From Gammaproteobacteria bacterium (GTDB taxonomy: Bacteria > Pseudomonadota > Gammaproteobacteria > JACCXJ01), in the NCBI GenBank assembly GCA_050740695.1, contig JBOIDR010000001.1:6762-70761 (forward strand): DNA of 64,000 nt. The letters run 5' to 3'. Shown here one piece after another: positions 4,072 to 61,155 of this stretch. Numbering within the stretch: the stretch's first letter is position 1; each line of letters opens with the position of its first letter. The notes under the pieces were generated by a model, which saw only the letters and a list, made by a program, of their open reading frames with translations, was not told the DNA's origin and ran no database searches. Position numbers and translations under genes: made by a program.

Positions 4072-5390
4072 AGGATGTAGCGGGCCAGGTCCTGGTCCTC
4101 GGCGAGCGCCGTGAGCTGGGCATCGACATAGGCGGCATCGACCGTGAGCGCCCTGATCTCGCCGCTGCCGGCGGCGAACGACACCGATTCCAGAAGGCGT
4201 TCGAGCACGGTGTGCAGGCGCCGGGCGCCGATGTTCTCGGCGCGCTCGTTGACCTGCCAGGCGACCTCGGCCAGGCGCGCGATCCCCGATTCCGCGAACG
4301 TGAGGCCCACCCCCTCGGTCTCCATGAGCGCCGTGTATTGCTCGGTCAAGGAGGCGTCGGGCTCGGTGAGGATGCGCACGAAGTCGCCGACCGTGAGGGC
4401 ATCGAGCTCGACCCGGATCGGGAGCCGGCCCTGTAGCTCCGGGATCAGGTCCGAGGGCTTGGAGAGATGAAACGCCCCCGAGGCGATGAAGAGGATGTGA
4501 TCGGTCTTGACCATACCGTACTTGGTAGAGACGGTGCCGCCCTCGACCAGCGGCAAGAGATCGCGCTGCACGCCCTCGCGCGAGACATCCGGGCCGCCGT
4601 ATTCGGAACGCCGCGCGACCTTGTCGATCTCGTCCAGGAACACGATGCCGTGCTGCTCGACGCGATCCACCGCCCGGGTCTTGATGTCGTCCTCGTTGAT
4701 GAGCTTCATGGCCTCTTCCTCGGCCAGGAGCTTCTGTGCCTCCTTGACGCGCAGCTTACGCGTGCGGGTGCGACCGCTGCCGAGATTGTGGAACATGGAC
4801 TGGAGCTGCTGGGTCATCTCCTCCATGCCGGGCGGGGCCATGATCTCGACTCCGATCCGGGGCGCGGAGACCTCGGCCTCGATCTCGCGATCGGCGAGCT
4901 TACCGTCCTTGAGCATCTCGCGGAAGCGCTCGCGGGTCGCCGAGCCGCCCTCGTCATGGACGCTGCCCAGGCGTGGGGCCGGGAGCAGGATGTCGAGCAC
5001 GCGCTCCTCGGCGGCCGCCTGGGCCTGGGCGCGCACCCGCGACATGGCCTCCTCGCGGGTCATCTTGACGGCGATGTCGGCGAGATCGCGGATGATGGAC
5101 TCGACGTCGCGGCCCACGTACCCGATCTCGGTGAACTTGGTGGCCTCCACCTTGAGGAAGGGCGCCTCGGCGAGCTTCGCGAGCCGGCGTGCGATCTCGG
5201 TCTTGCCGACCCCGGTCGGGCCGATCATCAATATATTCTTTGGCGTGATCTCGTTGCGAAGATCCGCGCGCACCTGCAATCGGCGCCAGCGGTTGCGGAG
5301 CGCGATGGCGACGGCGCGTTTGGCGGCGTCCTGGCCGATGATGTGTTTGTCGAGCTCGCGGACGATCTCGGCGGGAGTGAGCGCGCGCAT
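4068..5390 (-). CDS. hslU: ATP-dependent protease ATPase subunit HslU
   Basis: 440 aa starting [20 protein letters not shown], with Walker [16 protein letters not shown] and Walker B VFLDEIDK. Confidence 0.96.
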
Positions 5391-5414
5391 GGGATACCTA
5401 GCGGGCCCCTATTT

Positions 5415-5987
5415 TCATTTATTCAGGGAGGCCTCGGCCTCCAACTCCTCGATGGTGAGGTTGGCGTTGGTGTAGATGCAGATGTCCGCGGCGATGCGGA
5501 GCGCCGTTTCCACGATGGCGCGTGCCGGCAATTCCGTGTGCAGGCAGAGCGCCCGCGCCGCCGCCTGCGCGAAGGGGCCGCCCGAGCCGATGGCCAGGAC
5601 CTCACCCTCGGGCTCGATCACGTCCCCGGTGCCGGAGATGATGAGCGAGGCAGCCCGATCGGCGACCGCCAGCAGGGCTTCCAACCGCCTCAAGGCCCGA
5701 TCGGTGCGCCAGTCCTTGGCCAGCTCGACCGCCGAGCGTTTGAGGTTGCCCTGGTGCTTGTCGAGCTTGGCCTCGAAGCGCTCGAATAGCGTGAAGGCAT
5801 CCGCCGTACCGCCCGCGAAGCCGGCCAGGATCTGATCGCCGCGCATGCGCCTGACCTTGCAGGCATTGCCCTTCATGACTGTGTTGCCCAACGACACCTG
5901 CCCGTCCCCGCCCATGACCACCCGGGCGGCGCGCCTCACCGAGAGGATGGTGGTGCCTTCGAAGTGAATGGGAGAGCGCACCGTCAT
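5415..5987 (-). CDS. hslV: ATP-dependent protease peptidase subunit HslV
   Basis: The ORF 5415..6128 contains [24 protein letters not shown]. Start trimmed to ATG 5987 ([15 protein letters not shown]), which leaves a short propeptide before the catalytic Thr. Confidence 0.9.
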
Positions 5988-6248
5988 GGGCGGGAAGTGT
6001 ACACCAGGAACCGACCTCTGGGCCCTCGGCGGTCGCCCGGGTCGGGGCAGCTTCGCGTTCGAAGGTTCTTCGTCCGGCGCGCCTGTTCGATGCCACCCGA
6101 TAGCAATTGGGGTCGTCCATGCGTGCAACGGACGGGACGACCTCGTCTACCGGGCGCACCGCCGCCGTGTGACGGGGAGTCGAGAGTTTACAAAACCTGA
6201 CCCACCAAGTTATACTTTAGTGTAATGTAAGCATCCAGAGGCCTCATC

Positions 6249-6500
6249 ATGCCGATTGCAACTCTTCGCAGTGTGGGCGGTTCGGTTGTCATGGCCATCC
6301 CTAAGCGCATACTGGATTTGGTGCATTTGCGATCCGGTTCGCAAGTGAATATCGATGCCCAGGACGGGAAACTGATCGTTGCGCCCAAGAAAAAACCACG
6401 CTACACCCCCTCACCGAACTGATGGCGCAGTGCGACCTATCGCAGCTTATGAGCACCGAAGAAAGGGAATGGCTTGACACACCTGCCGTCGAATGCCCGG
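6249..6500 (+). pseudogene. PemI/Kis-like (MazE superfamily, AbrB/SpoVT fold) antitoxin, frameshifted
   Basis: Own translation from ATG 6249: MPIATLRSVGGSVVMAIPKRILDLVHLRSGSQVNIDAQDGKLIVAPKKKPRYTPSPN*, stop at 6420..6422. The expected continuation ..LTELMAQCDLSQLMSTEEREWLDTPAV.. lies in another frame (ORF 6422..). The break maps to the C5 run at 6406..6410. From memory, the C-terminus parallels plasmid PemI/Kis (..PQYSLAELLAQCD..EEREWLDAPA..). Confidence 0.65.
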
Positions 6501-6687
6501 CCGGGGCGAGATTTGGCACGTTAATCTCGGGGCCGATCGGTGTTGGCAGTGGAGCGGGCGTAGGGCGCGTCTCCGCGCCGACTCATTCGCTGGAGCAGAC
6601 AGCAGTGCCTCTATCATAAACGGATGGTCATACGAACTGTTCCGATCGCTTCCCGCAGGGCGGACCGTGAGAAACGTTAGGCGCTGA
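6493..6687 (+). pseudogene. PemK/Kid/MazF-like toxin remnant (decayed, frame-broken)
   Basis: MPGRGEIWHVNLG.. matches the ..RGEIW.V.L.P..G.E..G.RP.. N-terminus of PemK/MazF toxins. Downstream similarity is split between two frames and then fades, and the reading frame is too short for an intact toxin. Confidence 0.45.
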
Positions 6688-6751
6688 TCGGTGTAGGCGG
6701 TGGAGAATAAGTGCTACCCGGAACATGGGCGCGACGATCATCAGGCGTGAC
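6555..6751. repeat. Copy A of an imperfect ~200-bp direct repeat flanking the hicBA cassette
   Basis: Aligns by eye with 7299..7513: gcgggcg[t/c]agggcgcgt.tccgcgc.gactcattcgct.gagcagaca...gcctctatcataaacggatggtcata.gaactgt ... gggcgcgacgatcatcaggcgtgac. There are several indels. Confidence 0.7.
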
Positions 6752-6827
6752 AGAATCATACCGCGAATGATAGGCGCGGACACGCGCCCTACGTTTGCTC
6801 TACTCGTCGTACACTTGGAGGCTGGTT

Positions 6828-7037
6828 ATGAGAGTTTATTCTGCGGTAATAGAGCGTTGTCCCTACACGGGACTGTTCGTCGGTTTTGTTCCTGGTTTTG
6901 CGGGCGCGCACTCCCAAGGGGAGACGCTCGATGAGGTCAATCGTAACCTTCAAGAAGTCATAACGATGCTTCTTGAAGATGGAGAGCCTCAGCTTGAGTC
7001 CGAGTTTGTGGGGATTCAGAACGTCGCCATTGCGTAG
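6828..7037 (+). CDS. hicB: HicB-family antitoxin (UPF0150)
   Basis: MRVYSAVIERCPYTGLFVGFVPGFAGAHSQGETLDEVNRNLQEVITMLLEDGEP. Start set at ATG 6828, behind a GGAG at 6817..6820. It lies 2 nt upstream of hicA. Confidence 0.8.
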   Translation: MRVYSAVIERCPYTGLFVGFVPGFAGAHSQGETLDEVNRNLQEVITMLLEDGEPQLESEFVGIQNVAIA

Positions 7038-55980: not shown

Positions 55981-56967
55981 TCAGCCCCACCACACCCCCG
56001 GCGAAAGGAATCGCTCCAGTCCACGCCGCTTTCGAATGTAGGTCAGCTCGTACAGATCGGCCGCGGCACTGGCGTCCCTCAGGTAGTCGTCGCTCGTGCG
56101 TACCGCGTCGACGAGCTTGAGGTCCAGGGCTTGAAGGCCGTACCAGTGCTCGCCTGTCGAGACCTTTTCGATGTCCACATCCGGACGGTGGGACCTGACG
56201 AAGTCCTTGAACAAGGCATGGGTGATCTCGATGTCTTCGCGGAACTTCTCCCGCCCCTTCTCGGTGTTCTCACCGAACAGGGTGAGCGTGCGTTTGTGCT
56301 CGCCGGCCGTGATCAGCTCGTAGTCCACATCATGGCTCTTGAGTAGCCGGTTGAAATTCGGCATCTGGCCCACCACGCCAATTGAGCCGAGGATCGCGAA
56401 CGGGGCCGCGATGATGCGCTGGGCGACACAGGCCATGAGATAGCCACCGCTGGCCGCCACCTTATCGACCGCCACTGTCAGTGAGATACCGTGGTCTTTG
56501 AAGCGCTGTAGCTGGGACGCGGCCAAGCCATAGCCGTGGACCACCCCGCCCGGGCTCTCCAGGATCACGACGACCTCATCGTTCGGGGTTGCAACCGCTA
56601 GGACCGCGCTCACCTCCTCGCGTAGCGCCGCCACCGCTGAAGCGCGAATATCACCCTGGAAGCGCAGGACGAACACCCGCTTCCTGGCGCCCGACCCGTC
56701 CCCGCCGATGTCCTTTGCCCGGGCCTTACGCTCGGCCTTGAACGCCTTGTGCGCCTTCCTGAACGCCCGCCTGGGCCCCATCGCCGCTCGCAGCGCCAGC
56801 GCCATGGCGTCGTACTTGTCATTCAGGCGCTTCACCTCCAAGCGCTCTTCCTGTCCCGCCCTGCCACGCTTGCGAATGAGCACCAGACCAAACGTCAGCG
56901 CCAACAGAAACACCAACACGGTCGCTAGCTTGGCGACGAACAGACCATAATCGGTGATAAAGTCCAT
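55981..56967 (-). CDS. sohB: Protease SohB (peptidase S49)
   Basis: 328 aa. From memory it is colinear with E. coli SohB (VDKVAASGGYLMACVA, GSIGVVGQMPNFNRLLK, ATGEHWYG). Confidence 0.9.
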   Translation of the reverse strand: MDFITDYGLFVAKLATVLVFLLALTFGLVLIRKRGRAGQEERLEVKRLNDKYDAMALALRAAMGPRRAFRKAHKAFKAERKARAKDIGGDGSGARKRVFVLRFQGDIRASAVAALREEVSAVLAVATPNDEVVVILESPGGVVHGYGLAASQLQRFKDHGISLTVAVDKVAASGGYLMACVAQRIIAAPFAILGSIGVVGQMPNFNRLLKSHDVDYELITAGEHKRTLTLFGENTEKGREKFREDIEITHALFKDFVRSHRPDVDIEKVSTGEHWYGLQALDLKLVDAVRTSDDYLRDASAAADLYELTYIRKRRGLERFLSPGVWWG

Positions 56968-56974
56968 CCTGTTC

Positions 56975-57538
56975 CTAAACGGTCTCCGTGCGACCCTGCC
57001 GCAGTCTCAGGACAAGAAAGATCACCGCCCCGATGACAACGATCCCTAGCCCGATCATGACGTAGCTGCTTGTACCCCCCTTTGGGACGACCTGAATGGG
57101 CGCTTTCAGCACCAGCGGCCGGGCGTCGCTCATGGTCAGGACGGCCATGTAGCGCTTTCCGGCCTCGAACGCCGACTCCAATAGCACGGTCCCCTGGGGA
57201 TAGACCTTGGTGGGGACTTCGGCAACCGTCTTGATCGGCCCCCCGACCGCGATCTTCCCATCTTCACCCATCTCGACGACCCGGAGCTCGACGGGTTTGC
57301 TCCGCATCTCCGTGTCCGTGAAATCGAAAACCAGGTTGGTTTGTCCCGGCGCCGGGAGATCCCAGCAATGTTCCTCACCGCCCGTGGCCTGCTGATAGGC
57401 CGTGAAGTGCATCCGGTACTTCCCGAACTCCACAACACACGTATCGAACTCGATCGACGCACCGCCATGGGCGTGTGCGAGTGAACTGCCCAACAGCGCT
57501 GCCCCAGCCGCCACCCACATGATTATCTTGTATCTCAT
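56975..57538 (-). CDS. Candidate PmoD/AmoD-like periplasmic protein (signal peptide, beta-rich domain with a Cys/Met/His cluster, C-terminal TM anchor)
   Basis: Start set at ATG 57538 (MRYKIIMWVAAGAALLGSSLAHAHG), behind a GAGG. Contains FDTCVVEFGKYRMHFTAY and the C-terminal helix YVMIGLGIVVIGAVIFLVL. It lies directly downstream of pmoB. The family assignment rests on architecture and position only. Confidence 0.4.
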   Translation of the reverse strand: MRYKIIMWVAAGAALLGSSLAHAHGGASIEFDTCVVEFGKYRMHFTAYQQATGGEEHCWDLPAPGQTNLVFDFTDTEMRSKPVELRVVEMGEDGKIAVGGPIKTVAEVPTKVYPQGTVLLESAFEAGKRYMAVLTMSDARPLVLKAPIQVVPKGGTSSYVMIGLGIVVIGAVIFLVLRLRQGRTETV

Positions 57539-57606
57539 TACGTACCTCGCTTGCTCTGGCTCGCGCTCGCCCAACTGCGGCCCGCGCCGTCTATTGGCTG
57601 TCTTCC

Positions 57607-57637
57607 AAAAAAAAACCGCCCCCAATAGTGGGGGCGG
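57607..57637 (-). terminator. Rho-independent terminator after pmoB
   Basis: Minus strand reads ccgccccca-ctat-tgggggcgg followed by a run of nine T (A9 at 57607..57615 on the plus strand). Confidence 0.75.
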
Positions 57638-57714
57638 TGGATCTTCGCGCGGGCAACCAGCCCCTGGTTGTCGTTATCGGGCTCCGCGTCAGGTCATGAA
57701 ACCTGCCCTTCCGT

Positions 57715-58974
57715 TTAAGTGAAGCGCGGAAGCAGCGGGCCGCCGATCGCCACGACGTGCCGGAAGCCGCTGGTATCTGCGAAGAAGAACAAGCCACCGA
57801 ACCGGGCGTCCGGGTCATAGATGGCGTCGGCCAAGCGCTCGTTCTCCCAAGCGGCATCCGTGCAGGTGACCGTTATGATTCTCGAGTGACCCGGGAGGAT
57901 CGGGCTATTGTCATCCACGGTGAGCCCTTCCGGCGCCAGGAGCTGGGGCGGATAGTTGGTGTCATCCTTGTACACCGTCGGGTTCAGGAACCGAATGCCG
58001 GCCGTCTCGAACTCGGCTACCTGCACCGGGTTGACACCGCGGTTCGTCACACGGATCTTGATGTTGACGGAACGGCCCGGCACCCGGTAGGTCGCCTGCT
58101 CCAACCCCACCTCAACGGCCGGTTGGCCTGCCGGGATCGGGTCCATGAGGCCAATCACGCCGGCTTGCAACGGGATCGTGACGGGGTACGTGGCATTGGC
58201 GCTCCAGTAGCTGAGCGCAACGATGGCGATCGCGCCGAACATGAAGGCGAGACCCACCTTTAGGTCCCCTGGGGAGACCAGGTCTTCCTCAGGAACGCCT
58301 TCCTTGACGGCCAGGTAACGCGGGATGAACAAGGGCTTCGCCGCCCAGTAGCCGATCCAGGCGCAACCGAGCAGGAACCAGAACCAGCTCCAGCCCCAGA
58401 TCCCGGCCGTTCCGATCCGCTCGACGTCTTCCGTGCGGCCGGTCAAGGTCTGGACCTCGCTCTTATAATCCGCCATCGTCCCCTCGATCTGCACCCACTT
58501 GCCTGGGCCGATGATGGGACCCGCCGCTTCGACGTTCATCATCGTATGCACGTGCCAGCGACCGGGCCTGCGCGCCTGCAGGACCACCTTGAACGTGTAG
58601 TTCTCGCCCAGCGTCAGGTTGACAGAACGCGGCACGAACTGACCGCCGATGTAGGACTCCTGCCGGGTGAACACCGGACCGGGAATACCGATGTTCAGGA
58701 ACGCCGGGGAATATTGGGGGTTGGCCGTCGTTTCCGGCCAACCCTTGAACACGTGGAACTTACCGCTGACGGTCATCTTGTCGTTGACCTTGAGCTTGTC
58801 GGTCGACCACCGGAGATCGTACCAGTGGATGGTGCGCATCCGGAGGAACGCCTGCTGCGACTTCTCGCCATGGGCCGATGCCTCCGGGGCATACAGGCCC
58901 GTGGCGCCGACCACCATCGCGAGACCCGCGGCGGCCCAGCGCCCTACTCTCTTTATCATTGCTGTCTTACTCAT
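57715..58974 (-). CDS. pmoB: Copper membrane monooxygenase subunit B (PmoB/AmoB)
   Basis: 419 aa. After signal peptide cleavage the N-terminus is HGEKSQQAFLRMRT. It has the H.H site (RWHVHTMMN), two central TM helices and a second cupredoxin-like domain. Confidence 0.93.
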   Translation of the reverse strand: MSKTAMIKRVGRWAAAGLAMVVGATGLYAPEASAHGEKSQQAFLRMRTIHWYDLRWSTDKLKVNDKMTVSGKFHVFKGWPETTANPQYSPAFLNIGIPGPVFTRQESYIGGQFVPRSVNLTLGENYTFKVVLQARRPGRWHVHTMMNVEAAGPIIGPGKWVQIEGTMADYKSEVQTLTGRTEDVERIGTAGIWGWSWFWFLLGCAWIGYWAAKPLFIPRYLAVKEGVPEEDLVSPGDLKVGLAFMFGAIAIVALSYWSANATYPVTIPLQAGVIGLMDPIPAGQPAVEVGLEQATYRVPGRSVNIKIRVTNRGVNPVQVAEFETAGIRFLNPTVYKDDTNYPPQLLAPEGLTVDDNSPILPGHSRIITVTCTDAAWENERLADAIYDPDARFGGLFFFADTSGFRHVVAIGGPLLPRFT

Positions 58975-59021
58975 GTCTTAGCCTCATCGTGTTATTAGGT
59001 TCGGGTTTCTCGGACTGCGGC

Positions 59022-59765
59022 CTAGTACTCGGTCAAGTACTTCGTGGTGCAGAACCAACGCCCGAAGAAGTGCCAGATGAAGTAGACGAGAACGCAGATG
59101 AACCCGGAGAAGAAGGCCGAAACCGGCACCACGTCTTTACCGAAGGTCCTCAAGCTGCCCTTCTCGACGAAGCGGATGTACTCGGGCGTACCCGTCCGCA
59201 CGTAGTGGTAGCCCGCGATGTCGGCGATGGTCATGGACATCCCGTGGTACTCGACCGGCTGGTGCAGAGGCGCCAGCATGACCCAGTTACCGGGATAGAA
59301 GATGAGGCCAAATCCAAGACCGCCCACCACGGCCGTGACCAGGAAACTCTTGGACCACAGCAGGATGACGTCGAGGATGATGGCGCCCGGGACCAAGGTC
59401 GCGGCCCACACGAAGTTGATGGGGAAGTAGGTCCAGCCCCAGAAGTTGAAGTAACGGTTGACCCACTCGCCGAACAACAACCCCAGGATGCATATCGTCG
59501 CCCCGAAGGGGAGGCGCAGCTTGCCCCAAAGGTAGTATTGTGCCGCCGCAGGGAAGGTGATGCACATGATCGGCGTCACCGTGACCCACAGGCGGCGATC
59601 CTTCCAGTCCGACCAGAAGTCCCAGTCGCCCATCGTCAGCATGGCGTGGACGTGGAACCCGCCCGTGAACACCAGGAACGTCAAGGCTAGGATCAGCCAG
59701 TCGGCCGTCCTGGAAGCCTGAACGATCTCGGCTTTCGTAAATACCGCAGGTGAATAGGAACTCAT
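59022..59765 (-). CDS. pmoA: Copper membrane monooxygenase subunit A (PmoA/AmoA)
   Basis: 247 aa with HAMLTMGDWDFWSDWKDRRLWVTVTPI, NRYFNFWGWTYFPINFV and YVRTGTPEYIR.VEKG.LRTFGKDV. From memory this is very close to gammaproteobacterial PmoA. Confidence 0.95.
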   Translation of the reverse strand: MSSYSPAVFTKAEIVQASRTADWLILALTFLVFTGGFHVHAMLTMGDWDFWSDWKDRRLWVTVTPIMCITFPAAAQYYLWGKLRLPFGATICILGLLFGEWVNRYFNFWGWTYFPINFVWAATLVPGAIILDVILLWSKSFLVTAVVGGLGFGLIFYPGNWVMLAPLHQPVEYHGMSMTIADIAGYHYVRTGTPEYIRFVEKGSLRTFGKDVVPVSAFFSGFICVLVYFIWHFFGRWFCTTKYLTEY

Positions 59766-59868
59766 TGATAGATGCCTCCTCGTTTTATCGATTTATGGTA
59801 GCGCGGCAGCGAGAGAGCCTCTGCGCCGGGCACCAGCAACCGTCCCCTTTCTTTGGGGGTCGGTAGAA

Positions 59869-59903
59869 CCGGCCGTTGATTGATGTCATCGCACAACGGC
59901 CGG
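59869..59903 (-). other. 10-bp-stem hairpin in the pmoC-pmoA spacer
   Basis: ccggccgttg (59869..59878) pairs with caacggccgg (59894..59903) around a 15-nt loop, inside the 228-bp untranslated spacer. Confidence 0.5.
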
Positions 59904-59993
59904 TATATCCAGCTCCCGTCTCCTTGCTCAGAGCCTGTCTGGGCTCAGAGCTTCCCTCGTTCCGTGCTTACCGCGCTTTATAGCCTGGTTCGC

Positions 59994-60761
59994 TTAGTCT
60001 GCTTGCTTTAAGCTCGGCCCGACAAGACCTCCGATATTATCGAAGATCTGGCAGAGCAGGCCGCAAAGGCCCAGGGCCATCCAGCCGAAGAACACGAAGC
60101 CGTAGTGCAACGGGGCTACGAACAGCTCTTCCATCCACCAGAAGGTGTGACCCCACTCATTGAGGCCGACGTTCGGGAGGATCATGAAGGGCCCTACGAC
60201 CACGACCAGGTACGGCAGGGATACCCCCTTTGAGAAGCAGGGGATCCGGGTCCGAGCATACATGAAGGCGCCCCAACCCGTCAGGATGTAGATCGGGTAG
60301 CTCATGTAGAACTCGATGATGTGGCTGGGCGTGAAGTCCGTGTCACGGATGACGGTTTGGTGCCACGTACCATCCTGCTCGGTGTAGAAGCTGGCGCCCC
60401 AGTAGATAGCGATGCCGTAGGCGACCAACCACACCAAGTGATGGAAATGGTTCGTCAGAACCTCACTCGACGTCAGGGCATCCATATCCCGGACTCGGGT
60501 CTTCCACAGGTATGCGCCGATGGCGGCGAACAACGGGATATATAGCGCCGTTTCGATGTACAACCAGTTCATCCAATAGGTCTTGAACTCCGGCGCGAAC
60601 GCGTCCAACCCTGCGGACCAGCCGTAGACTTCTTCATACCAACGCACAAAGAAGTTGAAGAAGGTGAAGCCACCGACCATGAGCCACAGGTTCGTCGAGT
60701 TGAGGTAGCTGTGGGCCTTTTCGGCCGTGACTTGACTCGCAACAGCTTGTGATGCTGCCAT
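59994..60761 (-). CDS. pmoC: Copper membrane monooxygenase subunit C (PmoC/AmoC)
   Basis: 255 aa with YWGASFYTEQDGTWHQTVIRDTDFTPSHIIEFY (Asp/His metal site region) and NEWGHTFWWMEELFVAPLHYGFV. Confidence 0.93.
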   Translation of the reverse strand: MAASQAVASQVTAEKAHSYLNSTNLWLMVGGFTFFNFFVRWYEEVYGWSAGLDAFAPEFKTYWMNWLYIETALYIPLFAAIGAYLWKTRVRDMDALTSSEVLTNHFHHLVWLVAYGIAIYWGASFYTEQDGTWHQTVIRDTDFTPSHIIEFYMSYPIYILTGWGAFMYARTRIPCFSKGVSLPYLVVVVGPFMILPNVGLNEWGHTFWWMEELFVAPLHYGFVFFGWMALGLCGLLCQIFDNIGGLVGPSLKQAD

Positions 60762-60881
60762 TTTCTTTGCCTCCTATTTTGGTAGATCAACCACTCCATC
60801 CCGGCGCTGCTCCGGGAATGAAGTCCGTCTCACAGACCCACCCCCTCGCCCTTCTCTTCAGGGGAAACGGTGTGGATCCGT

Positions 60882-60909
60882 AGATGGTCTAAGTCTATCA
60901 AGTGAAGAC
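60882..60909 (-). promoter_or_regulatory. Candidate sigma70-type promoter upstream of pmoC
   Basis: Minus strand reads TTGACA (60909..60904), then 16 nt, then TAGACT (60887..60882), about 120 nt upstream of the pmoC ATG. Motif match only. Confidence 0.3.
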
Positions 60910-61155
60910 GGCATGTCAAGTCACCCGGACGGTCTAGTGCCCGCTGCCACGTCGGACCCCGCGCCGGCCGCCGTCCGTGGTATCCTGCCCGATCGATATT
61001 CTACAGTTTTCAAATAGATACGATCCGTGCGCGCACACAACCACGGTCTGAGCATGCCCGGTGAGGTTGCCAGAGATCCGGCGCCCCGGGCAAGGATACG
61101 GCAATTGACCTCGCACGGGGGCACGAGCGGCCATCGACGCTACTATGCCGGGGCC

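What the first reader, a model, noticed from the sequence alone, without database searches (positions are those of the whole stretch)
56975..60909. pmoCAB/amoCAB-type copper monooxygenase operon with terminator, candidate pmoD/amoD-like gene and an unusual host context
All three subunits are intact and in C-A-B order. The metal-site residues are visible: HGE.. N-terminus and H.H in subunit B, and the D...H region in subunit C. From memory, the PmoA sequence is closer to gammaproteobacterial PmoA (HAMLTMGDWDFWSDWKDRRLW) than to Nitrosococcus AmoA. Substrate (methane, ammonia or short alkanes/alkenes) cannot be read from sequence alone. A strong terminator follows pmoB. After it comes a gene with the PmoD/AmoD architecture: signal peptide, beta domain with C-x8-MH, and a C-terminal TM anchor. 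In gammaproteobacterial ammonia oxidisers amoD follows amoCAB, and in alphaproteobacterial methanotrophs pmoD follows pmoCAB, so this position is informative. The candidate is separated from sohB by only 7 nt. By eye the operon is less GC-rich than the surrounding chromosome. No methanol dehydrogenase, hydroxylamine oxidoreductase or formaldehyde-assimilation genes occur in the window.
Basis: partly seen in the sequence, partly recalled or inferred. Interest (0 to 1): 0.6.

Follow-up and report, generated by a model that had tools for sequence, protein, structure and literature searches.

The report
USC-gamma methane monooxygenase operon with PmoD
This is the single, intact methane monooxygenase operon of an uncultured "USC-gamma" bacterium, the soil and cave group that consumes atmospheric methane; it is followed, after a conserved terminator, by a known type of copper-protein gene (PmoD/AmoD) that the USC-gamma genome papers I could search do not mention.

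Summary
pmoC (60761-59994), pmoA (59765-59022) and pmoB (58974-57715) are intact on the minus strand and keep every known copper ligand. A strong terminator follows at 57638-57606. Next comes a 187-aa gene (57538-56975), and sohB starts 7 nt after it.

The fourth gene is a real PmoD/AmoD homologue. It matches PDB 6CPD by sequence (E 2e-10) and by predicted fold (Foldseek E 4e-8, TM 0.72). It has the AmoD-type motif Cx8MHxnC, not the CuA-forming motif Cx7MxHxnC.

The host context is not unusual. PmoA groups (support 99) with cave MAGs, one of which is a published USC-gamma MAG. The 4.3-Mb MAG also encodes a XoxF-type methanol dehydrogenase and Fae. It has no match to hps, RuBisCO or HAO, which is the published USC-gamma pattern.

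The lower GC comes from codon positions 1 and 2. GC3 is normal for the genome, so nothing points to recent transfer.

What is new is modest. All 15 genomes of the family have pmoB, then the conserved terminator hairpin, then pmoD. Only 1 of 66 informative Methylococcales-type loci has a same-strand pmoD just after pmoB.

The parts
60892..60919 (-). Sigma-70-type promoter: TTGACA, 16 nt, TG-n-TAGACT (extended -10)
   Evidence: It was the only promoter-like site in 5.4 kb. Both hexamers and the TG are invariant in L008, L009 and L012, although the surrounding sequence has diverged. Function is inferred.
60762..60885 (-). Predicted 5' UTR of about 124 nt, with a conserved hairpin CCCGG-AGCAGCG-CCGGG (60816-60800) and AGGAGG (60775-60770)
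   Evidence: Conserved blocks in the four-genome alignment and the sequence itself. The transcription start site is inferred from the -10 position.
59994..60761 (-). pmoC, 255 aa
   Evidence: PF04896 E 4e-107 and NF041641. Best PDB match is M. capsulatus PmoC at 355 bits. The CuC motif (D-x3-H-x12-H) and CuD motif (N-x3-H-x13-H) are identical to Bath.
59022..59765 (-). pmoA, 247 aa; the only copy in the genome
   Evidence: PF02461 E 7.5e-120. It is the only copy in the genome. It is 94% identical to SD8035 and 87% identical to the published USC-gamma MAG SD8020_metabat2.bin.3; the clade has SH-aLRT support of 99.
57715..58974 (-). pmoB, 419 aa; signal peptide, mature N terminus H35-G-E
   Evidence: PF04744 E 4.5e-158. 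Best PDB match is M. capsulatus PmoB at 547 bits. The equivalents of H33, H137 and H139, and of H48 and H72, are conserved.
57659..57683 (-). First hairpin after pmoB (GCCC(C)...GGGGC)
   Evidence: Present in the MFE and centroid folds. The core pairs are kept in 14-15 of 15 family genomes.
57606..57638 (-). Intrinsic terminator: 10-bp GC-rich stem, 4-nt loop, run of nine T
   Evidence: The stem is conserved in 15 of 15 family genomes while the loop varies. The outer pair switches between G-C and A-U (8 versus 6 sequences). The genus-g2 copy lacks a clean T-run.
56975..57538 (-). pmoD (AmoD-type), 187 aa: signal peptide 1-23, mature H24-G-G, C34-x8-M43-H44-x13-C58, beta domain, transmembrane helix 158-186
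   Evidence: - phmmer against PDB 6CPD PmoD gives E 2.1e-10.
- The AF2 model has pLDDT 76, and Foldseek's top hit is 6CPD at E 4e-8, TM 0.72.
- Orthologues at 61-92% identity lie directly after pmoB in 15 of 15 family genomes.
- dN/dS is 0.11-0.29.
- There is no Pfam or NCBIfam model for this family.
55981..56967 (-). sohB (S49 peptidase), a neighbour 7 nt downstream and not part of the system
   Evidence: NF008745 E 9e-137. It directly follows pmoD only in the window's own genus (5 of 5). In genus g3 an opposite-strand hydrolase gene lies between them, and in g2 sohB is absent from the locus.

Best explanation
The region is the single particulate methane monooxygenase operon (pmoCAB) of an uncultured gammaproteobacterium of the USC-gamma lineage ('Ca. 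Methyloligotrophales'), the group held responsible for atmospheric methane uptake in alkaline soils and caves.

Transcription most likely starts at a conserved sigma-70 promoter about 125 nt upstream of pmoC. Most of it probably ends at a conserved intrinsic terminator about 80-110 nt after pmoB.

The next gene, pmoD, encodes a periplasmic cupredoxin-like copper protein tethered to the membrane. It belongs to the PmoD/AmoD family, in the AmoD-type class with motif Cx8MHxnC. It is most likely expressed at a lower level by read-through of that terminator. It probably serves the enzyme as a copper-handling or electron-transfer accessory, as shown genetically for PmoD in Methylosinus.

Methanol from the reaction would be oxidised by the XoxF-type dehydrogenase, and formaldehyde through the Fae/H4MPT route; both are encoded elsewhere in the genome.

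Shown here: gene identities, ligand conservation, PmoD homology by sequence and fold, clade placement, family-wide synteny, terminator conservation and normal GC3. Inferred: methane as the substrate (from the literature on USC-gamma), promoter use, terminator read-through, and the role and copper-site chemistry of PmoD.
For: - Pfam and NCBIfam scores for all three subunits are far above the cut-offs.
- The copper ligands are identical to those of M. capsulatus pMMO.
- Bit scores rank gammaproteobacterial pMMO above alphaproteobacterial pMMO above betaproteobacterial AMO for all three subunits.
- PmoA sits in a clade with support 99 that includes SD8020_metabat2.bin.3. PMC13333085 lists that MAG as a USC-gamma MAG.
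- Genome GC of 64.2% matches the high-GC USC-gamma subclade.
- Genome content: XoxF (best PDB match 6DAM at 917 bits, DYDG motif); Fae at 237 bits; no hps, RuBisCO or HAO-family match. This is the published USC-gamma pattern (PMC13333085, PMC12638822).
- 13CH4 labelling and metatranscriptomes in PMC12871462 tie this lineage to methane oxidation, with pmoCAB the most highly expressed genes.
- PmoD. Its motif class is defined in PMC6189053.
- Synteny holds in 15 of 15 family genomes.
- The terminator is conserved, with one compensatory pair.
- No promoter-like site lies between the terminator and pmoD.
- pmoD is under purifying selection.
Against: - Read-through versus an unrecognised pmoD promoter is therefore open.
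- In Nitrosococcus oceani, amoD is regulated very differently from amoCAB: it is induced 22-fold by ammonium, against about 1.2-fold for amoCAB (PMC3772326). That would also fit a separate promoter.
- Substrate cannot be read from sequence, and USC-gamma has no isolate.
- No Nitrosococcus AmoA could be put in the tree, and by pmoA phylogeny USC-gamma is grouped with Nitrosococcus amoA as 'type Id' (PMC4678205).
- The HAO search had no positive control, and the MAG is 89.5% complete.
- The Cx8MHxnC class of PmoD was not among those tested in vitro in PMC6189053, so its copper chemistry is unknown.
Confidence: 0.8

Rival explanations
1. pmoD is an independent transcription unit, with sohB in this genus, driven by its own non-consensus promoter. 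On this view its position after pmoB is a conserved neighbourhood and not part of an operon.
For: A strong, conserved terminator separates pmoB from pmoD. The 7-nt gap to sohB suggests that pmoD and sohB are co-transcribed in genus g1. In N. oceani, amoD responds to ammonium far more strongly than amoCAB, and the cluster is described as overlapping operons (PMC3772326).
Against: No sigma-70-like site was found in the 67 nt between the T-run and the ATG, and that stretch is not conserved between genera. The adjacency to sohB is lost in genera g2 and g3, while the adjacency to pmoB is kept in 15 of 15 genomes.
Confidence: 0.2
2. The enzyme is an ammonia monooxygenase, or a short-chain alkane or alkene monooxygenase, and not a methane monooxygenase.
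For: NCBIfam's best models are named AmoA/B/C_BACT, but they cover both enzymes. The C-A-B-D arrangement with an AmoD-type motif is that of Nitrosococcus (PMC6189053, PMC13058606). USC-gamma pmoA is grouped with Nitrosococcus amoA as 'type Id' (PMC4678205).
Against: - There is no HAO-family match.
- XoxF and Fae are present.
- All three subunits score far higher against solved pMMOs than against solved AMOs.
- 13CH4 labelling links this lineage to methane (PMC12871462).
- The divergent CuMMO with a PmoD-like gene found in G025 is only 42% identical in subunit A.
Confidence: 0.07
3. The operon is a recently acquired genomic island, as its lower GC might suggest.
For: GC dips to 56-63% over pmoCAB, against 65-70% in the flanks.
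Against: - GC3 is 0.79, 0.875 and 0.84, within the genome's distribution (29th to 86th percentile). The deficit lies in codon positions 1 and 2, as expected for aromatic-rich and hydrophobic membrane proteins.
- The operon, promoter, terminator and pmoD are conserved across three genera of the family.
- sohB is adjacent in all five genomes of the genus.
- No mobile-element features were seen in the flanks.
Confidence: 0.04

Closest known systems
pmoCAB of published USC-gamma MAGs (USCg-Taylor, wb1-P19 Lehman/Frasassi, SD8020_metabat2.bin.3, USC_AKS; order JACCXJ01 / 'Ca. Methyloligotrophales')
   Same: PmoA is 247 aa from a 744-bp gene. It is 87% identical to SD8020_metabat2.bin.3 and falls in the same clade (support 99). 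The genome has XoxF and Fae, has no hps or RuBisCO, and is high in GC (PMC13333085).
   Different: It is a different species or genus-level lineage; the best match is 94% to SD8035_maxbin2.bin.2. None of the USC-gamma papers listed contains the word pmoD. The fourth gene and the conserved terminator are therefore additions to the published description.
amoCABD cluster of Nitrosococcus oceani (gammaproteobacterial ammonia oxidiser)
   Same: The gene order is C-A-B and then a single D gene. D has the AmoD-type Cx8MHxnC motif, and stem-loop terminators lie inside the cluster (PMC6189053, PMC3772326, PMC13058606).
   Different: There is no amoR and no HAO. The downstream genes differ: sohB here, Noc2499 and Noc2498 there. 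The enzyme here is assigned to methane.
PmoD of Methylocystis sp. Rockwell (PDB 6CPD; Fisher et al. 2018)
   Same: Signal peptide, cupredoxin-like beta domain, two conserved cysteines, C-terminal membrane helix and a position after pmoB. Sequence match E 2e-10; fold match TM 0.72.
   Different: About 25-31% identity. Met and His are adjacent (Cx8MH) instead of Cx7MxH. In that study only the latter class formed the CuA site, so a CuA centre cannot be assumed here. The mature N terminus is a conserved His-Gly-Gly.
pmoCAB of Methylococcales (for example Methylococcus capsulatus Bath)
   Same: PmoA is 66-72% identical, PmoB 51-57% and PmoC 59-74%. The metal-binding segments of PmoC are identical.
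   Different: In Methylococcales, pmoD is usually not after pmoB. Of 66 informative loci, 58 have none within about 8 kb, 1 has a same-strand copy within 1 kb, and 3 have an opposite-strand copy. This agrees with PMC6189053.

Membership tests
Copper membrane monooxygenase (pMMO/AMO, CuMMO) | Three subunits C, A and B matching PF04896, PF02461 and PF04744, in C-A-B order | tested here: met
   All three score 358-527 bits against cut-offs of 23-28 bits. The order is C-A-B on one strand.
Copper membrane monooxygenase (pMMO/AMO, CuMMO) | Copper ligands: PmoB N-terminal His plus HxH (CuB); PmoC D/H/H (CuC) and N/H/H (CuD) | tested here: met
   All align to the M. capsulatus Bath residues.
USC-gamma pMMO clade | PmoA groups with sequences of recognised USC-gamma genomes, apart from Methylococcales | tested here: met
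   The clade has SH-aLRT support of 99 and contains SD8020_metabat2.bin.3, which PMC13333085 names as USC-gamma. Identity to the defining clone AJ579667 was not tested. Nitrosococcus is missing from the tree.
Aerobic methanotroph (function) | Methane oxidation by the cells or the enzyme | not testable with these tools
   Literature on the lineage only (13CH4 labelling and kinetics in PMC12871462).
Aerobic methanotroph (function) | Downstream C1 oxidation modules present, hydroxylamine oxidoreductase absent | tested here: met
   XoxF is present and so is Fae. PF13447 gave no hit, but the control genomes were silent as well. The MAG is 89.5% complete.
Aerobic methanotroph (function) | A complete known C1 assimilation route (RuMP, serine cycle or CBB) | tested here: not met
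   There is no hps and no RuBisCO. The serine cycle was not tested here. The same gap is reported for all USC-gamma MAGs (PMC13333085, PMC12638822).
PmoD/AmoD family | [quoted passage not shown] | tested here: met
   C34 and C58 are invariant across the alignments. The AF2 model shows an N-terminal helix, a beta domain and helix 158-186. Signal-peptide cleavage was judged by eye from the AxA rule.
PmoD/AmoD family | Homology to characterised PmoD by sequence and fold | tested here: met
   phmmer against 6CPD gives E 2.1e-10. Foldseek gives E 4e-8 with TM 0.72, and the next hits are unrelated Ig-like folds at E above 1e-3.
PmoD/AmoD family | Found only in genomes that carry a CuMMO | tested here: met
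   Among the 31 genomes searched, PmoD hits occur only in the 15 family genomes and in G025, and in each of them a hit lies next to a pmoB homologue.
CuA-forming PmoD subclass (Cx7MxHxnC; alpha-methanotroph PmoD, AmoE) | Cys-x7-Met-x-His ligand spacing | tested here: not met
   The spacing is C34-x8-M43-H44. In the alignment to 6CPD, R42 aligns with the ligand Met49. The protein belongs to the AmoD-type Cx8MHxnC class (PMC6189053).
Intrinsic (rho-independent) terminator | GC-rich hairpin followed by a U-tract, conserved in relatives | tested here: met
   Termination efficiency in vivo is not testable here.

The most novel reading that the evidence does not exclude
The operon-linked, AmoD-type PmoD is a dedicated partner of the high-affinity pMMO of atmospheric methane oxidisers. 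It has an invariant mature N-terminal His-Gly-Gly next to the Cx8MH motif and sits behind a conserved attenuating terminator. On this reading it builds a copper site different from the known CuA, for example one that uses the N-terminal amine and imidazole. Its retention in USC-gamma, in a related cave lineage and in Nitrosococcus, and its loss from the operon in Methylococcales, would mark a functional split among gammaproteobacterial CuMMOs.
Probability: 0.12. Interest if true: 0.7.

Novelty: new member of a known kind. Interest (0 to 1): 0.35.

Why it matters
USC-gamma bacteria are a major biological sink for atmospheric methane, and none has been cultured. Every conserved component next to their enzyme is therefore a candidate for explaining activity at 2 ppm methane or for reconstituting the enzyme.

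This analysis adds a fourth conserved gene and two conserved regulatory elements to the USC-gamma operon. It also shows that the operon layout matches that of the ammonia oxidiser Nitrosococcus, not that of conventional gammaproteobacterial methanotrophs.

The fourth gene belongs to the one PmoD motif class linked to pmo/amo operons whose copper chemistry was not examined in the 2018 study. A soluble-domain expression experiment would therefore be informative. The operon itself and the family are already known, so the advance is small.

Tried and rejected
- Nitrosococcus AmoA and AmoD for the trees: the genome-contig scan kept only the 80 best PmoA loci, all with 66% identity or more. The listing of cluster members on 10 PmoD relatives returned only 'hypothetical protein' or no name. 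A profile search returned no Nitrosococcus name. El Sheikh et al. 2008 (PMC2223232) is not held.
- MAG names in the supplements of PMC12638822: none are held.
- HAO absence: PF13447 found nothing, but no control genome matched either, so the negative is weak.
- Horizontal transfer: rejected on GC3 and synteny.
- A functional pmoD-sohB link: rejected, because the adjacency exists only in one genus.
- Known RNA family in the leader or terminator region: only sub-threshold chance hits.
- Copper genes next to the two pmoD paralogues (C169, C83): none seen by eye. The neighbours look like an RNA methyltransferase, GTPase-like membrane proteins, an ABC transporter and an outer-membrane protein; these were not searched against families.
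- The AF2 model is unreliable for residues 21-31 (pLDDT below 50), so the position of H24 relative to C34, M43 and H44 could not be judged.

Full report
**Observation.** The minus strand of 55981-60919 carries four genes in a row, then sohB.
- pmoC (60761-59994), pmoA (59765-59022) and pmoB (58974-57715) are followed by a 187-aa gene (57538-56975) and sohB (56967-55981).
- The three monooxygenase subunits match their Pfam and NCBIfam models at E 1e-104 to 1e-162.
- Aligned to solved M. capsulatus Bath pMMO, the ligands are all in place. PmoB keeps the mature N-terminal His (H35-G-E), 'RWHVHTMM' and the Bath H48/H72 equivalents. PmoC keeps DGTWH...PSH and NEWGH-x13-H.
- A 10-bp GC-rich hairpin with a run of nine T lies at 57638-57606. 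The region folds at -50 kcal/mol, z -2.9.
- The mechanical ORF of the fourth gene starts at a TTG inside the terminator. The plausible start is the ATG at 57538, behind GAGG.
- The gap to sohB is exactly 7 nt.

**Identity of the host and of the enzyme.**
- The window lies on contig C1 of a 4.31-Mb MAG with 265 contigs, 89.5% completeness and 64.2% GC. The MAG has one copy each of pmoC, pmoA and pmoB.
- A scan of one genome per prokaryotic species returned five cave MAGs as the closest PmoA loci, at 79-94% identity. After those came about 75 Methylococcales-type loci at 66-72%.
- In a maximum-likelihood tree of 86 PmoA sequences rooted on alphaproteobacterial sequences, the window and these five MAGs form a clade with SH-aLRT support of 99, separate from the Methylococcales.
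- One of the five, SD8020_metabat2.bin.3 (87% identical), is listed by name as a USC-gamma MAG in PMC13333085. The genome's GC matches that paper's high-GC USC-gamma subclade.
- Against solved structures, each subunit scores highest with gammaproteobacterial pMMO, lower with alphaproteobacterial pMMO, and much lower with betaproteobacterial AMO. For PmoA the scores are 414, about 330 and about 260 bits.
- No Nitrosococcus sequence could be obtained, which is a limit. By pmoA phylogeny USC-gamma is classed with Nitrosococcus amoA as 'type Id' (PMC4678205).

**Rest of the genome.**
- A 610-aa PQQ dehydrogenase on C106 scores 700 bits on TIGR03075. It matches the lanthanide enzyme XoxF (6DAM, 917 bits) well above the MxaF structures (about 600 bits). 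It carries the DYDG sequence; from established knowledge, that extra Asp marks lanthanide-dependent enzymes.
- Formaldehyde-activating enzyme is present on C13 (237 bits against a cut-off of 118).
- There is no match to 3-hexulose-6-phosphate synthase, the RuBisCO large subunit or the HAO multihaem family. The HAO search had no positive control.
- This is the pattern published for USC-gamma MAGs: pmoCAB, xoxF5 and formaldehyde and formate oxidation, with no hps/phi, no RuBisCO and an unresolved assimilation route (PMC13333085, PMC12638822, bioRxiv 10.1101/2024.08.23.608578).
- Methane as the substrate rests on that literature, including 13CH4 labelling and metatranscriptomes of cave USC-gamma (PMC12871462). 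It does not rest on anything I could compute.

**GC content.** The dip is real (56.9, 59.7 and 63.3% for pmoC, pmoA and pmoB), but third-position GC is 0.79, 0.875 and 0.84. Among 1,497 long ORFs of the genome the median GC3 is 0.83, and the three genes fall at the 29th, 86th and 55th percentiles. The deficit lies in codon positions 1 and 2, so it reflects amino-acid composition. Together with the synteny below, this argues against recent transfer.

**The fourth gene is a PmoD/AmoD homologue.**
- No Pfam or NCBIfam model matches it. phmmer against PDB sequences finds the PmoD soluble domain of Methylocystis sp. Rockwell (6CPD) at E 2.1e-10 over residues 33-137.
- An AlphaFold model built on 22 homologues has mean pLDDT 76. 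It shows an N-terminal helix, a beta domain and a C-terminal helix at 158-186.
- Foldseek ranks 6CPD first (E 4e-8, target-normalised TM 0.72). The next hits are unrelated Ig-like domains at E above 1e-3.
- C34 and C58 are invariant. M43 and H44 give C-x8-M-H-x13-C.
- Fisher et al. (PMC6189053) define this Cx8MHxnC class as the AmoD type. It makes up 13.4% of family members and is mostly linked to pmo/amo operons. Only the Cx7MxHxnC class formed the CuA site in their hands, and the Cx8MHxnC class was not among the classes they tested in vitro. The copper chemistry of this protein is therefore open.
- The predicted cleavage AHA|HGG would leave His24 as the first residue. An HG[GNSAD] motif 9-10 residues before the first Cys occurs in 48 of 54 Cx8MH representatives and in 43 of 61 other Cx9H representatives of the wider family. 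This is a family-wide trait, not a peculiarity of this gene.
- pmoD is under purifying selection (dN/dS 0.11-0.29).
- The genome holds two more paralogues (33-36% identity, Cx8VH, no HGG) on C169 and C83.

**Conservation of the arrangement.**
- All 15 genomes of the window's family (three genera) have an orthologue at 61-92% identity, and in every one it follows pmoB on the same strand.
- The hairpin CCGCCCCC-loop-GGGGGCGG is present in all 15, with different loops. The outer pair switches between G-C and A-U, and the T-run is clean in 14.
- The promoter-like element TTGACA-16-TG-n-TAGACT at 60919-60892 is invariant in three diverged relatives whose flanking sequence is not conserved.
- sohB directly follows pmoD only in the window's genus. 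In genus g3 an opposite-strand hydrolase gene intervenes, and in g2 sohB is absent from the locus. I therefore treat sohB as a neighbour only.
- A profile HMM of the PmoD family was searched against all ORFs of the 80 PmoA loci. Of 66 non-USC-gamma loci with at least 1 kb after pmoB, 58 have no PmoD gene within about 8 kb. One (Methylocucumis oryzae) has a same-strand copy 488 nt after pmoB, three have an opposite-strand copy within 1.5 kb, and four have one 4-7.5 kb away.
- This agrees with the published statement that in Methylococcus-type methanotrophs pmoD is not in the pmo operon, whereas Nitrosococcus has amoCABD (PMC6189053, PMC13058606).
- Two other lineages also place a PmoD-like gene right after subunit B. 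One is a cave MAG on a long PmoA branch (L060). The other is a 45%-GC gammaproteobacterium with a divergent CuMMO (G025).

**Mechanism.**
- Shown: the components and their conservation.
- Inferred: transcription from the conserved promoter, efficient but incomplete termination after pmoB, and low-level read-through expression of pmoD. In this genus that read-through would include sohB.
- The read-through idea rests on two points. The scan found no promoter-like site in the 67 nt before pmoD. That spacer is also not conserved between genera.
- The alternative is a separate, unrecognised promoter, and it stays live. In N. oceani, amoD is induced 22-fold by ammonium while amoCAB barely changes, and the cluster is drawn as overlapping operons with weak terminators (PMC3772326).
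- The role of PmoD (copper loading, site stabilisation or electron delivery to pMMO) is taken from the Methylosinus knockout phenotype in PMC6189053. It has not been tested for the AmoD class.

**Comparison and novelty.** The pmoCAB operon of USC-gamma is already described in several MAG papers. None of the USC-gamma papers listed contains the word pmoD. The family-wide pmoB-terminator-pmoD unit, its AmoD-type motif and the contrast with Methylococcales are thus small additions to a known system. I rate the finding as a new member of a known kind, with moderate-to-low interest.

**Earlier notes of this scan.** They called this genome a probable atmospheric-methane-oxidising cave bacterium. In other genomes they found that the gene after pmoCAB is a PmoD homologue whose N-terminal His is family-wide and untested. 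My own analyses agree with them.

**Not done.**
- Trees that include Nitrosococcus.
- A positive control for the HAO search.
- The serine-cycle genes.

Noticed in passing
L060:1655-3698 (MAG M3-S_metawrap_bin.32, JBOIEE010000295.1): A cave MAG whose PmoA (67% identical) sits on a long separate branch also has a PmoD gene (31% identical, HGG N terminus, Cx8MH) 191 nt after pmoB on the same strand. It may belong to the newly named 'Ca. Methylocavales', but this was not verified.
   Followed up: partly
L109:467-8603 (G025, contig C8): A 45%-GC gammaproteobacterium has a divergent C-A-B monooxygenase (subunit A 42% identical). It is followed by a terminator-like hairpin, a PmoD-like gene (HGG, Cx8AH), a multicopper oxidase (5188-6867) and two ORFs with no Pfam match.
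   Followed up: partly
own genome, contig C39:349-1759 (L003/L004): A second PQQ alcohol or methanol dehydrogenase homologue is split over two overlapping reading frames (TIGR03075 positions 30-246 and 242-483). It is either a frameshifted pseudogene or an assembly error.
   Followed up: no
own genome, C169:1804-2388 and C83:17866-18588: Two further PmoD paralogues (33-36% identical) have Cx8VH in place of Cx8MH and lack the HGG N terminus. By eye their neighbours are not copper genes: an RNA methyltransferase and GTPase-like membrane proteins on C169, and an ABC transporter and an outer-membrane protein on C83.
   Followed up: partly
window 60800-60816 (minus strand): A small hairpin, CCCGG-AGCAGCG-CCGGG, in the predicted pmoC leader is conserved in three diverged USC-gamma genomes. 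No Rfam family matches it.
   Followed up: partly
PmoD family representatives P0147-P0295: A predicted mature N-terminal His (A-H-G-G), 9-10 residues before the first conserved Cys, occurs in 91 of 115 classifiable family representatives. All members looked up are annotated 'hypothetical protein' or carry no name, and neither Pfam nor NCBIfam matched the two members scanned.
   Followed up: partly
L050:1776-3768 (Methylocucumis oryzae); L048 and L087: These are exceptions among Methylococcales. Methylocucumis oryzae has a same-strand PmoD gene (Cx8MH, lipoprotein-like N terminus) 488 nt after pmoB. Two MAGs have a PmoD gene immediately after pmoB on the opposite strand.
   Followed up: no
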